Positions 45,001-51,000 of a stretch of 64,000 nt of DNA are shown here, piece by piece; positions within the stretch are counted from its first letter, which is position 1; the number at the start of each line of letters is the position of its first letter. The position numbers are program-made. The DNA lies in assembly GCF_026210795.1 (NCBI RefSeq), contig NC_089434.1, positions 2,046,001 to 2,110,000 of the forward strand. The letters are read 5' to 3'. Origin of the DNA: Rhizophagus irregularis (lineage: Eukaryota).

Positions 45001-48000
45001 GATATTCTAATTGAATTAATATTATTTAAAGTAGTAACAGAATTCTGCTTATTTATAAAATAGATTACTGGAAATCTAAGATAGTGATTTAATTCTATTT
45101 TAAAACAATTTAGATAGCAATCTAGATCTGAAAATTTATAGATTGATTTTTAATTTAAGATTAATTCAAATATATTCTAATTTGCCATTAGTTAAATTAA
45201 GATCTATTAGAATAAATTTTAATAAAGTTTTTTTTTATAATTTTATTTATAAAGATTTATAAATTAATAAAATTATTAAAATTATTAATAATTATAAATA
45301 GAGTGAATTTATTTACCGCATCCTGCGTTATAACGCATTTTTCCTTTTTTGTAAATTGTTTATGTCAATCTTTAGTTTATACACCGCACCTCCCCTTAAA
45401 ATGGCAAATGATAAACATAAAAATATATATAAATTTGTAACGCAGGGTGCGGTAAATACATTATTTCTTATAAATAACTTAGTTTACTTTTACTTCTAAA
45501 ACTTAAGGAATTTATTTCTATTTCTTAATTTTTAATTTGGTTATTTTCTTTTTTCTAAACACTAGTCAAAAAAGAAATATTCAGTTTTAATACAATTTGA
45601 CCTATATTCGACTAGAATTAATAAAATTCGACTTCAATTAGTAAAGATCTATGATTAGACATATATTCAACCTACTAGTTGAATTATGTTAATCAAATGT
45701 TATGCGTTATGCGATACGTGTATTAAAATAAAAGTTCAAAAAAGGATGATCCTTTTTTAAATTTTTTTAATTTTCTTCCTTTCCCTTTTCCTTCATCCTA
45801 GTTTCTTTTCTTCCCCTTTCCCTCCCTTTGTTTTCCTTTTCCTTCCTTTGCTTTTCCCTTTCTTACCCTTTCCCTTTCCTTTCGTCACTTAACTTTTTTG
45901 AAAGTATACATATCATACAGGACCTCGCTTACTTATAAGATAGGTCACCCCCAAGCCTAAGGTAAAAATTATATATAAAATTCTTTGCAGATCCTACTAT
46001 AAAAGGAAATTTTATGTTACATTGTTATGATTTTTTTCCTTTTTAACTAATTAACCAATAGAATTTAAGAAAAAAGTAAGGTAAAAACTATTAGTAAAGG
46101 GCTAATTTTCTATGATGACCTTTATTATAAGTAAGCGGGATCCTACATATACCTTCAAATTTTTACTTTTTTAACAAAACGTTCCACTAACATTTTCGTT
46201 TTTTTTTTTAAATTCAAGACGCCCATTTAAAAAGTTCGGGTAGGCTTTTGAAGTACAGAAACTTCAAAGATTCATAAATATGAATTCTTTGGAGTTTTTT
46301 TTATTTTTTTTTAATATGAACAGTTACTAACCGTTCTTTTTTTACTTTTTTTTAGATTCAGCCGTTTGGGTGGGCTTTCGAAGTATGAAAAAACTAAGTT
46401 TACAAAACTTGGATTATTATTTTTTATTTTTTAATTAATATGAACAGTTAGGAAGCTTACAGATATTACGTAATTATCAAAGGGGGGAGAGGGTAACCAA
46501 AATCTTATGTTATACTTAATAAAATATATAATTATAATTTGATTGGTTATTAAATCTGACAAGGGAAGGAGTAAGTTTATATTAAACTGAATATTACGTA
46601 ATATATGTAACTCCTCTTACTAACTGTTCTTTTTTACTTTTATTTTAAGTTCGGCCATTTGGGTGAGCATCTGAAGTATAGAAACTCCAAATATTCATAA
46701 GTACGAATTCTTTGGAGTTTTTTTTTATATTTTTAATATGAACGGTTAATACTAACCGTTTTTTTTATTTTTTTTTAAGTTCGACCATTCAGGTGAGCTT
46801 CTGAAGTATAAAAACCCTAAAGATTTGTAGGTACGAATTCTTTGAAGTTTTTTTTTATATTTTTAATATGAATGGTTAATACTAGCTGTTCTTTTTATTT
46901 TTTTTAGATTTGGCTCTTAGATGACTACCGAAGAATGAAAAAACCAAGTTTTGTAAGTTTAAAACTTGGTTATTTTTTTTTGTTTATTTTTAATATTATG
47001 AACAGTTAGGGAGCTTACAGATATTACATAATTATTAAAGGGGGGAGGGGGATAACCAAAATCTTACGTTACACTTAATAAAATATATAATTTATAAATA
47101 TTATAATTTGATTGGTTATTAAATCTGACAAGGGGGGAGGAGAGTAAGTTTATATTAAACTGAATATTATGTAATATATATAACTTCCCTTATTAATAAC
47201 TGTTCTTTTTCTTTTTTTAGGATCAGATATTCTGAAGAACGGGAAAATTCCAAGATTCGTAAGAATCTTGGATTTTTTTTTATTTTTTTTAAAAAAAATA
47301 TTACGAACGGTTACTAATAACCGTTCTTTTATTTTTTATAGGTTTGGGTGGACTTCTGTATTTTGAAAAATGGGAAAATTCCAAAGATTCGTAAGAATCT
47401 TGGATTTTTTTTTATTTTTTTAAAAAAATATTACGAATGGTTACTAATAACCATTTTTTTCTATTTTTTAGAATCTGATAGGTTTTCGAAGAAAGAAAAA
47501 CTAAGAAACCAAGATCTGTAAGTAAATACGATTGTATGAATCTTGGTTTAATTTTTTTTGTTTTTTTTTAATATATGAACAGTTCTAACTGTTCTTTTCT
47601 TTTTTTTTAAGATCTGGCGGGCTTCTGAAAAATGGAAAACCAAGAAATTAAGATTCGTAAGTAAGTACGAATTTTGGTTCTTTTTTTTGTTTTTTTTTTA
47701 ATATATGAACGGTTTACTAATAACTGTTCTTTTCTTTTTTTTAGGATCAGATGGGTTTCTGAAGAACGAAAACTTAAAGATTCGTAAATACGAATCTTTA
47801 ATTTTATTTATTTATTATTATTACGAATGGTTTATTAACCATTCTTTCTTTTTTTTATAGTTCAAGTAAGCTTCCAAAAAATGAAAACCCAAAGATTTGT
47901 AAGTACGAATCTTTATATATTTTTTTTATTTTTTTTTATTATTTTGGAACAGTTTACTAACTGTTCCTTTCTTTTTTATAGGTTCAGGTGGACTTCTGTG

Positions 48001-51000
48001 TGGAAAAATCAAGATTCATAAATAAGTACGAATCTTGGTTTAATTTTTTTAATTTTTTTTTTTAATATTAATGAACAGTTACTAATAACCGTTCTTTCTT
48101 TTTTTTAAGTTTTGTGGGCTTCCGACCTTTGAGAAAAAAGGAACTAAGATTTGTAAGTATGAATCTTAGTTTATTTTTTTTATATTTTTTTTAACAGTTA
48201 CTAATAACTGTTCTTTACTTTTTTTTAGGTTCAGGTGGGCTTCTGTATGGAAAAACCAAGATTCGTAAGTAAGTACAAATCTTGGTTTAATTTTTTAATT
48301 TTTTTTTTAATATTAATGAACAGTTACTAATAACCGTTCTTTCTTTTTTTGTTAGGCTTTGGGTGGGCTTCTGACCTTTGGGAAAAGAGGAACCAAGATT
48401 CATAAGTACATACGAATTTTGGTTTATTTTATTATTATTTTATTATTATGAACGGTTACTAACTGTTCTTTTCTTTTCTTTTTTATAGGTTTGGTGTCTT
48501 GGGTGGGCTTTTAAAGAACAAAAAAAACAAAGATTTGTAAGTAGAATCTTAATTTTTTCTGCTTTTTTTTAATATTATGGAATGATTACTAACCGTTTTT
48601 TTCTTTTTTTATAGTTTCAGTAGATTTTCAAAAGATCAAGACTCGTAAGTATATACGAATACATGAATCATGTGATTGTGAAATTGTAGATTAGCAATAA
48701 TTATTTGTAATTTAGATAGATGCTAATAATAATAATATAATTAAGTATTTAATAAGTACTTTAATAAATTTGATATACAGTCAAACCTTGATATAGCGAA
48801 CTCTTGATATAGTGAATTTTTCAGACAACTATAATAAATTTCCCCTTGCTATAATGAATTAACCAATCAAATCTCTTAAAATCTTCACTATAGCCCTATA
48901 GCGAAGTTGAGGTCTGGAACCTAGGGTTCGTTATAACAAGAGTTGACTGTATAATAAAATTAAAATAAATTCAGAAATAAATAGGTGGTTATTAGACTAT
49001 AATTCGATTTAAGTTTTAATGTCAAATATTGGTCAATTTAAGGTCTAATTTTAGCCAAATATTCTTTCTGAATTTGAGACGATTAGCACTCTAAATGCAC
49101 CCAAAAATTTAACCTTAATTTGACACAAGTTAGATCATTATTCGTAGGGTTGTGAGAGTTACGTTACATAGATTACAATATATGTAACTTACGCTGTAAG
49201 TTACATCGACCCCTTGTAACTTACATCTTATATAATATTATAAAATCGATTCCTATTAGTACAAAATTAGCATATCATGTAATCAAAATTTCCTAAATAA
49301 AATTCATAAAACAAAACACTTTATCTACTTTATTTATTTTTTCAAGAAATTAATTACATTTACAATATTATATTTAAAAAATTAATCTTGAAATTCATTT
49401 AATTCTTCATCTAATAATCCTTCCAAATCTGAATAGGATTGAAAATCTAAATCAGAAAAATCAGATTCAACATCAATTTCTTATTCATTATTACTTTTGG
49501 CAGCTTTTCTTATAGCTTTCTTTTGCAATACTTTCTCAACTCAGCCCTCTATAGTAAGTGGCTTTTCTAATGAATGTAATATTTGCAGATTTCAAAACAT
49601 ATAAACAATTTTTTCTACCCGCTTTTCATGCAATTTATTTCGTAACTTTGAATGAATAAATCCAAATGTAGACCAATTTCTCTCACTGGCTGCTGAAGTT
49701 GCGAGTATGGAAAGTATCTGAATGGCTATATCACTAAAAATTGGATATCTTCCTTTCATTAAATTCCATCAGTTAACGGGTTTTTGAATTACATCTCCCT
49801 ACAAATGGCTATGCGCAAAACTTCCTGTTTTTCTAACATATTTGGCAAGTTTTGTTAAAACTATATTTTTATATTCTTCCCCTACTAAACTTAAAGTTTC
49901 CTTTTCAATAATAGGATCAAATATGCGTGTATTAAGGCAACTATCACAATATTATAGATCTAATTTATAAGCAACAATGACAACTGGATTCAACTGGATT
50001 GTATAAGAAGTTTTACCACCGATTTGTGCCAAATTTTTCAACTTCTTCACGAATATTTTCAGGTAAATCAGTATTGTTTCGCATATATGCTTTAAGTTGC
50101 TGATATTCAAAATATGCAGTAGAAAGAAATGTTTTATCTCCTTCTAATTTTTTAATAAAAATAGCAAAATTTTCTAAAAAATTTTGAATTTTCCCAAGAT
50201 CATTCCAAAAAGTATCACTAGAAATAAGTGACTTCATTCTATCATCAAGATTAAGATGATCCTCAGCAATAGTAGATCGAATAGCTGATTTTGTAAAGAA
50301 TAACTGGTTAATATAAGAATATGAAGATCCCATCATGTATCGCAAAGTAAAATCAATGCGATTTCTAAGGATGGCCCCGAAATTGATTTGGCAAAAATCC
50401 GAAATCCGAAATTTCGAATCCGAAATCTGAAATTTTTCCGAAATTAATTCATAATTTTGGCCGAATTCATAATTCCAGCCGAAAATCGTAATTCCGGTCA
50501 AAACGGATATGTCGATCATTTCTATATTTGGCAATAGCCATTACACAAAAATCGATTTTGGAATCTTGTGTAACATCGATTTCAATTTTAGGAAATTCTA
50601 TAATTCCTGCCAGAATTAAGTGCATAATTCTGGCCAAATTTACATATTTAATTTCAGCATTTCGGCTGGAATTTCGGATTTCAGAATTTTGGATTTGGCT
50701 GGAATTACAGCTACGATTTCAGAATTTTGGCAAATCTGAAATATTTTAGTTTCAGGGCCATCTTTAGCGATTTCCTTTCCATATTTTTCTTTTTGTAAGC
50801 GTCGAAGTGCAGCAAGTATTACTTGATAATTTTTTTGCTTTTTCTATTATTTCCTTTATCCATTCAATACTTATAATATCTTTCATCTATAAATGAATAC
50901 CATGCGCCCAACAGCCAAGAAAGATTTTTTTGGGATATTTTTGTTTTAAGATCTTCCAAGCAGCCTTTATATTTGGCACATTGTCTGTAATTATTGCACC

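What the first reader, a model, noticed from the sequence alone, without database searches (positions are those of the whole stretch)
46150..48660. Array C: donor and branch point displayed as hairpin tetraloops
Seen: TCCAAGATTC-GTAA-GAATCTTGGA (47249-47272; perfect 10-bp stem, donor GT in a GNRA loop) and GAACGGTTA-CTAA-TAACCGTTC (47305-47326; perfect 9-bp stem, putative branch A 24 nt before the AG ending at 47341). Other units change both arms together: gaacagtta/taactgttc, gaatggtta/taaccatt, ccaaag/ctttgg, ctaag/cttag. This is apparent covariation, although CpG deamination on both strands could mimic part of it.
Basis: seen in the sequence. Interest (0 to 1): 0.85.

Follow-up and report, generated by a model that had tools for sequence, protein, structure and literature searches.

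The report
Hairpin-masked intron repeats in mycorrhizal fungus
A fungus, likely mycorrhizal, carries a repeat family of tiny, likely non-coding exon-plus-intron units whose splice signals sit in predicted hairpins that likely hinder splicing; this copy is mutated and decaying, while related copies appear in RNA with the introns left in.

Summary
Both quoted hairpins are real, but "displayed as tetraloops" is the exception. The GTAA loop occurs in 2 of 15 parsed donors and the CTAA loop in 5 of 16 units. Usually the donor G is paired, and the constant branch motif (TAAC, 21-26 nt before AG) lies in the stem's 3' arm. The hairpins are predicted to mask the U1 and U2 sites.

Branch-stem covariation is confined to one CpG per arm (7 versus 4.5 expected, p=0.06). 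The donor stem keeps about three compensations that deamination cannot explain. Four other degenerate arrays in the window resemble this layout.

The array is 16 units of a 36-60-nt spacer exon plus a 76-94-nt U2-type intron, in a Glomeromycotina fungus. It was copied as a block (unit order kept in L001). This copy is decaying: 32 of 40 differences from L001 are C>T/G>A, 5 of 17 donors are lost, and three MITE-like insertions interrupt hairpins.

PolyA reads from paralogs with intact splice sites run through them unspliced. Power to see spliced reads was low, and only 471 bases were tested. Eight literature searches found no description of the family. Function is inferred, not shown.

The parts
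45761..45903 (+). Pyrimidine-rich stretch, possible first exon (inferred)
   Evidence: Sequence; not covered by the RNA test
45897..46159 (+). First donor (GT at 45904) with hairpin arms 45897-45908 and 46148-46159, split by an insertion; stem type of array A
   Evidence: Sequence
45920..46143 (.). MITE-like insertion, about 19-nt terminal inverted repeats, TACA on both sides; 92% copy at 18753-18964
46173..46213 (+). First branch hairpin (array-A type) and T tract; acceptor reads AA, likely mutated
46214..48614 (+). 16 tandem units: 36-60-nt exon-like spacer plus 76-94-nt intron-like part (insertions removed). Unit ends 46355, 46649, 46779, 46907, 47220, 47341, 47471, 47611, 47744, 47860, 47981, 48109, 48228, 48355, 48488, 48614
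46451..46616 (.). MITE-like insertion 1 in a branch-hairpin loop, TTA on both sides
   Evidence: other copies have other flanks (loose ends)
47009..47189 (.). MITE-like insertion 2 (86% alike to 1), about 24-nt inverted ends, TTA on both sides; absent from L001 and from paralog reads
47249..47272 (+). Cited donor hairpin, 10 bp, GTAA loop (GT at 47259); minority form
47305..47326 (+). Cited branch hairpin, 9 bp, CTAA loop; conserved TAAC in the 3' arm (A 47320)
48615..48662 (+). Terminal partial unit with donor hairpin (GT at 48645); the last C-type unit of L002 has the same donor loop

Best explanation
This array is a decayed copy of a multi-copy, likely non-coding repeat family of a Glomeromycotina fungus whose unit is a short spacer exon plus a U2-type intron, with predicted hairpins that likely mask the donor and branch site so that family transcripts keep their introns. 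Step 1 (shown): each unit has GTAAG, a TACTAAC/TAATAAC-type motif about 21-26 nt before TAG, T tracts and local inverted repeats over donor and branch. Step 2 (shown): arrays are inherited or copied as blocks, and paralogs with intact CpG and splice sites exist. Step 3 (shown for 471 bases, with caveats): polyA libraries hold paralog reads that cross intact splice sites unspliced. Step 4 (predicted): opening the U1 and U2 sites costs about 6 kcal/mol each, so spliceosome assembly would be slow or stall. Step 5 (inferred by analogy with fission-yeast dg RNA and Cryptococcus SCANR): such stalled substrates would feed RNAi and DNA methylation, which would fit the C>T decay of this copy. This copy itself is probably silent.
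For: Anatomy. A loose donor-branch-acceptor pattern occurs 11 times on + and 0 on - in the array, versus 9 times in 56 kb of both strands elsewhere. Non-coding: 7 of 16, 3 of 7 and 2 of 8 exons are multiples of 3 in window, L001, L002; no ORF of 110 aa. Masking: opening energy median 6.2 kcal/mol for 15 donors (3 gene controls 0.9-4.3) and 5.6 for 14 branch sites (1 control 0.2). Similar layout with other donor stems in array A; a model built from 28 C-type units finds A-type units at E 2e-4 to 0.07. Block copying: 7 of 8 L001 units match window units in order. Decay: 32 of 40 substitutions C>T/G>A towards the window, 4 the other way; CpG observed/expected 1.12 versus 2.18 and 1.8 in L001/L002; 5 of 17 donors lack GT; 4 of 16 units end AAG versus 15 of 15 TAG in L001/L002. 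RNA: 242 and 298 of 11.05 million reads; 0 and 11 at 99%+; intact G at donor 46697 in 45 of 50 and 43 of 58 reads; 110 and 124 loose ends continue through branch arm and T tract; none of 7 listed joints has GT..AG ends. MITE bins have DNA depth 666-1635 but RNA depth 0-2, while the array peak has DNA 4148 and RNA 150-157, which argues against plain DNA carry-over.
Against: Spliced paralog reads would match only about 45-nt exons that are often under 85% alike to this copy, so the lay could miss them; splicing may be common. Reads lie in both orientations (84/66, 99/58) and library strandedness is not on record. A-tracts on the minus strand could be captured by oligo-dT. The MITE control is weakened by edge bins, different strains, and the tool's silent removal of human-like reads. 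Hairpins are predictions, fold as well on the other strand, and template switching can make and repair them without selection (PMC8794818, abstract). Sub-array 12050-12600 has similar splice signals with no hairpins (0 of 4 donors, 0 of 3 branch), and 1 of 6 A1 branch regions has one. Two of five whole units tested fold weakly (z -2.9, -1.2). The model also hit an unrelated repeat at 10245-10366. C>T is not CpG-specific (CG 18/72, CA 7/29, CC 9/58, CT 6/48). In yeast, stems near splice sites did not correlate with spliced fraction, and dg repression was independent of intron sequence (PMC12350175, PMC5322907, passages). No small-RNA or methylation data were seen.
Confidence: 0.5

Rival explanations
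1. Selfish or neutral satellite-like repeat: one ancestral exon-intron piece was amplified, the hairpins were made and homogenised by template switching at the DNA level, and the RNA is read-through noise.
For: Copy is decaying and invaded by MITEs; branch covariation is CpG only; the mechanism exists (PMC8794818, abstract); RNA is low (22-27 reads per million) and in both orientations; 24% of the R. irregularis genome is uncharacterised repeat (PMC8647823, passages).
Against: Hairpins sit on the donor and branch in subfamilies with different donor stems; TAG is kept in 15 of 15 and CpG-rich sequence persists in L001/L002; the 32:4 asymmetry suggests some copies are protected.
Confidence: 0.27
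2. One reading: hairpins present the donor and branch A in loops and promote splicing of a many-exon RNA.
For: Perfect loop forms exist in 2 of 15 donors and 5 of 16 branch hairpins; signals are near consensus and evenly spaced; the RNA test had low power for spliced reads.
Against: G+1 paired in 9 of 11 GT donors; TAAC in the arm in 32 of 32; even the GTAA form costs 7.4 kcal/mol to open; reads cross intact sites unspliced.
Confidence: 0.1
3. Relic of a micro-exon protein gene family (SP7-like or schistosome MEG-like) whose exons are shuffled by splicing.
For: Stop triplets are few in intact exons: 3 versus 7.4 (4 of 300 shuffles) in L001 and 6 versus 8.7 (35 of 300) in L002.
Against: Antisense exons hold even fewer stops (0 and 2); exon lengths keep no frame; protein searches with an unspliced L002 frame gave 1 hypothetical protein among 103 candidates and none among 400 longer ones.
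Confidence: 0.06
4. The units are ends or tandem copies of a mobile element (Helitron-like or introner-like) or spliced-leader-like RNA genes, and the hairpins serve mobility or trans-splicing.
For: Hairpin followed by a short tract and TAG resembles a Helitron 3' end; a short exon with a paired donor resembles SL RNA (both recalled). Introner-like elements are structured and high-copy (PMC3609843, passages).
Against: CTRR end in 0 of 31 units; Sm-type site in 4 of 31, all in the decayed copy; exons are duplicated with the introns and vary in sequence; no transposase ORF in the array.
Confidence: 0.07

Closest known systems
Cryptic introns in S. pombe centromeric dg/dh non-coding RNA (PMC5322907, passages) and Cryptococcus SCANR stalled-spliceosome RNAi (seen only as cited there; original not held)
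   Same: Consensus splice and branch sites in repeat-derived non-coding RNA that stays largely unspliced.
   Different: There a single intron is repressed by distance from the start, independent of intron sequence. Here many tandem introns each carry local hairpins. No silencing link is shown here.
Introner-like elements of fungi (PMC3609843, passages)
   Same: Multi-copy U2 introns with stable predicted structure and compensatory changes, decaying over time.
   Different: ILEs are longer than regular introns and sit in unrelated genes. Here exon and intron are duplicated together in tandem, with no host reading frame, and the donor stem uses exon sequence.
SP7-like effector genes of AM fungi (PMC11333574, passages)
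   Same: Glomeromycotina, repeated modules, paralogous copies.
   Different: SP7 genes encode secreted repeat proteins; these exons keep no frame.
Unclassified repeats of Rhizophagus irregularis (PMC8647823, passages)
   Same: Likely the bin in which this family is hidden; repeats there are often CG-methylated.
   Different: No exon-intron-hairpin unit is mentioned in the passages seen; supplements and repeat libraries were not read.
Spliced-leader RNA gene arrays (recalled)
   Same: Tandem units of about 100-130 nt with a short exon and a donor in a stem.
   Different: Units carry branch and acceptor, lack a conserved Sm site, have variable exons and no spacer for a promoter.

Membership tests
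U2-type spliceosomal intron | GT donor near GTAAGT | tested here: met
   12 of 17 window donors; 8 of 8 L001 and 7 of 9 L002
U2-type spliceosomal intron | Branch motif and T tract before YAG | tested here: met
   21-26 nt spacing in 29 of 30 units; TAG in 27 of 31
U2-type spliceosomal intron | Excised from RNA | tested here: inconclusive
   0 of 7 listed joints GT..AG over 471 bases; low power
Introner-like element | Multi-copy intron with stable structure | tested here: met
Introner-like element | Inserted singly in unrelated genes with unrelated flanking exons | tested here: not met
   Exons homologous and tandem in 28 of 28 aligned units; genome-wide solo copies not testable
Micro-exon protein gene (SP7-like, MEG-like) | Frame-preserving exons | tested here: not met
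   12 of 31 exons multiple of 3
Spliced-leader RNA gene | Sm site RAU3-6GR after the donor stem (motif recalled) | tested here: not met
   4 of 31 units, none in L001/L002
Spliced-leader RNA gene | Exon found on 5' ends of mRNAs | not testable with these tools
   Needs a transcriptome-wide search
Helitron | CTRR 3' end after a hairpin (recalled) | tested here: not met
   0 of 31 units
Hammerhead ribozyme array | CUGANGA core (recalled) | tested here: not met
   4 of 31 units, where most intact units read CCGA; no Rfam match
snoRNA host gene | C/D or H/ACA boxes in introns (recalled) | tested here: not met
   0 of 31 units; no Rfam match at gathering score
PIF/Harbinger-type (Tourist-like) MITE, for insertions 1 and 2 | Terminal inverted repeats, TTA/TAA target duplication (recalled), empty sites and dispersed copies | tested here: met
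   partner transposase not identified
Stalled-spliceosome silencing substrate | siRNAs or chromatin marks that depend on the intron | not testable with these tools
   No small-RNA or methylation data available

The most novel reading that the evidence does not exclude
Arbuscular mycorrhizal fungi devote a sizeable part of their genome (about 11% of this window) to an undescribed class of intron-dense non-coding genes in which every perfect U1 and U2 site is locked in its own hairpin, forming poly-intron decoys that load or stall spliceosomes to trigger RNA silencing or to gate splicing by condition.
Probability: 0.2. Interest if true: 0.85.

Novelty: new variant of a known kind. Interest (0 to 1): 0.58.

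Why it matters
About a quarter of the R. irregularis genome is uncharacterised repeat (PMC8647823, passages). Arrays of this layout cover roughly 7 kb of this 64-kb window (hand-set bounds), so this may name a major piece of that fraction. Such units can also mislead gene predictors. If the hairpins gate splicing, the family gives many natural variants for testing how paired donors and branch sites affect spliceosome assembly and silencing in a symbiont that is hard to manipulate. If not, it is a clear case of deamination and palindrome repair mimicking RNA covariation.

Tried and rejected
No own genome is held, so copy number and solo copies were not measured. The ratio of summed DNA depth 4148 to 13.3 for an exact-match contig only hints at hundreds of units; the tool says it is no copy number. 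X15 (RNA only by guess) behaved like DNA and is not used as expression evidence. RNA was laid only on 46580-47050, so the 5' end and the two cited hairpins are untested. Rfam: 0 matches. Pattern scans: GTDB 0; viral 0, 0 and 3, the 3 being unrelated palindromes. ESM Atlas: best 0.83, weak. The representative-protein search never ran. One search used a mis-indexed structure and is superseded. In one search one donor row (47518) is out of register and was left in. Stop depletion against single-base shuffles mostly vanished against dinucleotide shuffles. Earlier scan findings: 5 answered look-ups, none returned anything. Searches for a description of the family found none. In PMC13465315, PMC10234402 and PMC9860276 term look-ups showed nothing on it. 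No supplements were read and most subscription papers are not held, so a description could exist.
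Full report
Source. No genome is held for the window. An ORF at 29990-30532 has 10 relatives among 32 candidates, two named from Racocetra and Diversispora, so the host is inferred to be a Glomeromycotina (arbuscular mycorrhizal) fungus. DNA runs of three species labels in five studies hold at least half of the array's words, one possibly the source. A 132-nt contig of run X6 matches 46849-46980 with no difference, so the decayed sequence is not an assembly artefact.

Observation. Both hairpins are where stated and are beyond chance. The array has 16 full units between 46214 and 48614, a leading intron of another stem type, and a terminal partial unit. Each unit has an exon-like spacer of 36-60 nt, often with its own small hairpin, then a GTAAG-type donor, T tract, branch hairpin, T tract and AG; the intron-like part is 76-94 nt. 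A loose pattern for the three signals occurs 11 times on + and never on - in the array, against 9 times in 56 kb of both strands elsewhere. Because the units share one origin, this is one coincidence to explain, not eleven.

Geometry. The tetraloop picture fits a minority. Between the donor arms lie 4 to 20 nt; GTAA alone in 2 of 15 window donors and 5 of 32 overall. The common form GTAAGTAC pairs GT with AC, and G+1 is predicted paired in 9 of 11 folded GT donors. All 32 branch hairpins start their 3' arm within TAAC (one TAGC), while the loop varies from 2 to 13 nt or holds an insertion. That A lies 21-26 nt before the AG in 29 of 30 units. The CTAA loop occurs in 5 of 16 window units. Opening the U1 site costs a median 6.2 kcal/mol (7.4 in the GTAA form) and the U2 site 5.6, against 0.9-4.3 and 0.2 in a small set of gene introns. 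In yeast, intervals round splice sites are depleted of stems (PMC12350175, passages), so this layout is unusual.

Covariation. On 28 aligned units, 93.9% of 474 cells pair and 6 of 17 pairs change on both sides (score 0.204 versus 0.134, 0 of 500 shuffles; relatedness not controlled). In the branch stem both such pairs are the CpG; compensated states are 7 against 4.5 expected, p=0.06. The same C, in the same mirrored context, mutates most in both arms, which mimics compensation. In the donor stem, positions -3 to -9 give 99 of 112 Watson-Crick cells against 85.7 (3 of 20000). By inspection this is about four events: A-U to U-A, A-U to G-C, C-G versus A-U, and C-G to U-A, the last of deamination type. 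Template switching can also create and repair stems (PMC8794818, abstract). Better evidence is that array A puts different stems over its donors (5 of 6 and 5 of 9) and related stems over some branch sites (1 of 6 and 3 of 9); the sub-array at 12050-12600 and the gene controls have none. Model R1 finds A-type units at E 2e-4 to 0.07 but also one unrelated repeat.

Family and decay. One metagenome scan gave two loci. L001 repeats the window's unit order in 7 of 8 units and lacks the insertions; L002 has the same terminal donor loop and continues into A-type introns. In five unit pairs, 32 of 40 substitutions are C>T or G>A towards the window. In six pairs they hit CG 18 of 72, CA 7 of 29, CC 9 of 58 and CT 6 of 48. 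GT is lost in 5 of 17 window donors, and the CpG change that kills GT is about as common as the one that keeps it, which gives no sign of selection on this copy. Four units end in AAG, likely a lost G. Two related insertions with inverted ends and flanking TTA sit in branch loops, and a third with flanking TACA splits the first donor hairpin. Other copies of the first kind have other flanks.

RNA. Only 46580-47050 was laid, on about a quarter of two polyA runs of the same species label. 242 and 298 of 11.05 million reads were laid, 163 and 175 under 90% alike, 0 and 11 at 99% or more, so they come mostly from other copies. They restore the donor G at 46697 (45 of 50, 43 of 58) and the acceptor G at 46648 (7 of 7, 9 of 11), yet run on through donor, T tract and branch arm. 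None of 7 listed joints has GT..AG ends. The MITE bins (DNA depth 666-1635) have RNA depth 0-2, while the array peak (DNA 4148) has 150-157, arguing against simple DNA carry-over. Limits: spliced paralog reads would mostly fall under the likeness cut; strandedness is unknown and both orientations occur; minus-strand A tracts could be oligo-dT captured; the MITE control may lose reads to the tool's human-likeness filter.

Coding. Exon lengths keep no frame (12 of 31 multiples of 3). Stop depletion is weak against dinucleotide shuffles and stronger on the antisense strand. Protein searches gave one hypothetical protein from another copy.

Mechanism. Most likely (0.5): a multi-copy, non-coding family whose hairpins mask consensus U1 and U2 sites, so transcripts retain introns; stalled assembly feeding silencing is an inference from the dg RNA case (PMC5322907, passages). 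Rivals: neutral repeat with DNA-level hairpins (0.27), loop display promoting splicing (0.1), mobile-element or leader RNA units (0.07), micro-exon protein relic (0.06).

Comparison and novelty. It fails tested features of introner-like elements (PMC3609843, passages), micro-exon genes, SL RNA genes, Helitrons, hammerhead arrays and snoRNA hosts. It works most like poorly spliced cryptic introns in repeat RNA. Eight searches found no description; supplements, repeat libraries and most subscription papers were not seen. It probably belongs to the 24% of uncharacterised repeats reported for R. irregularis (PMC8647823, passages). Verdict: real feature, partly misread, apparently undescribed family, decayed copy, function unproven; interest 0.58.

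Noticed in passing
window 11030-13900 (+): Array A: similar exon-intron layout with different donor stems. 5 of 6 donors of the 105-nt units and 5 of 9 in the next part fold better than at least 95 of 100 shuffles. L002 runs from C-type units straight into this type.
   Followed up: partly
window 12050-12600 (+): Sub-array with 31-32-nt exons, GTGGG/GTGAG donors and CTAAT branch but no donor or branch hairpin: a natural control.
   Followed up: partly
window 16400-16950, 19280-19700, 23130-23570, 24050-24215 (+): Further, more A/T-eroded arrays of this layout; in some the donor hairpin starts at about +3 inside the intron. All lie on the + strand.
   Followed up: partly
window 46451-46616 and 47009-47189: The same MITE sits at the equivalent TTA of two branch hairpins, while L001 has both units empty: independent targeting or conversion after insertion.
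   Followed up: partly
window 10306-10512: About four 50-nt tandem units with internal palindromes; also hit by model R1.
   Followed up: no
window about 26787-26950 and 43247-43410: Two copies, in opposite orientation, of another short element with long terminal inverted repeats, seen by eye.
   Followed up: no
window 34860-42335 (+): LINE-like retroelement (endonuclease and reverse-transcriptase matches) broken into several frames.
   Followed up: no
window 20362-22003 (+) and 50013-51721 (-): Tc5/DDE_1 CENP-B-type transposase gene, and pieces with a weak DUF659 match.
   Followed up: no
window 4726-5730, 29238-30532, 63208-64000: C2H2 zinc-finger ORF; a gene with Glomeromycotina relatives; a pyridine nucleotide-disulphide oxidoreductase gene, likely glutathione reductase. 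Introns of the last two served as controls.
   Followed up: partly
L005 about 2930-3070: A viral contig holds an array of GTAG-led palindromes resembling bacterial REP elements (recalled) that shares a 19-nt hairpin with this family; likely chance.
   Followed up: no
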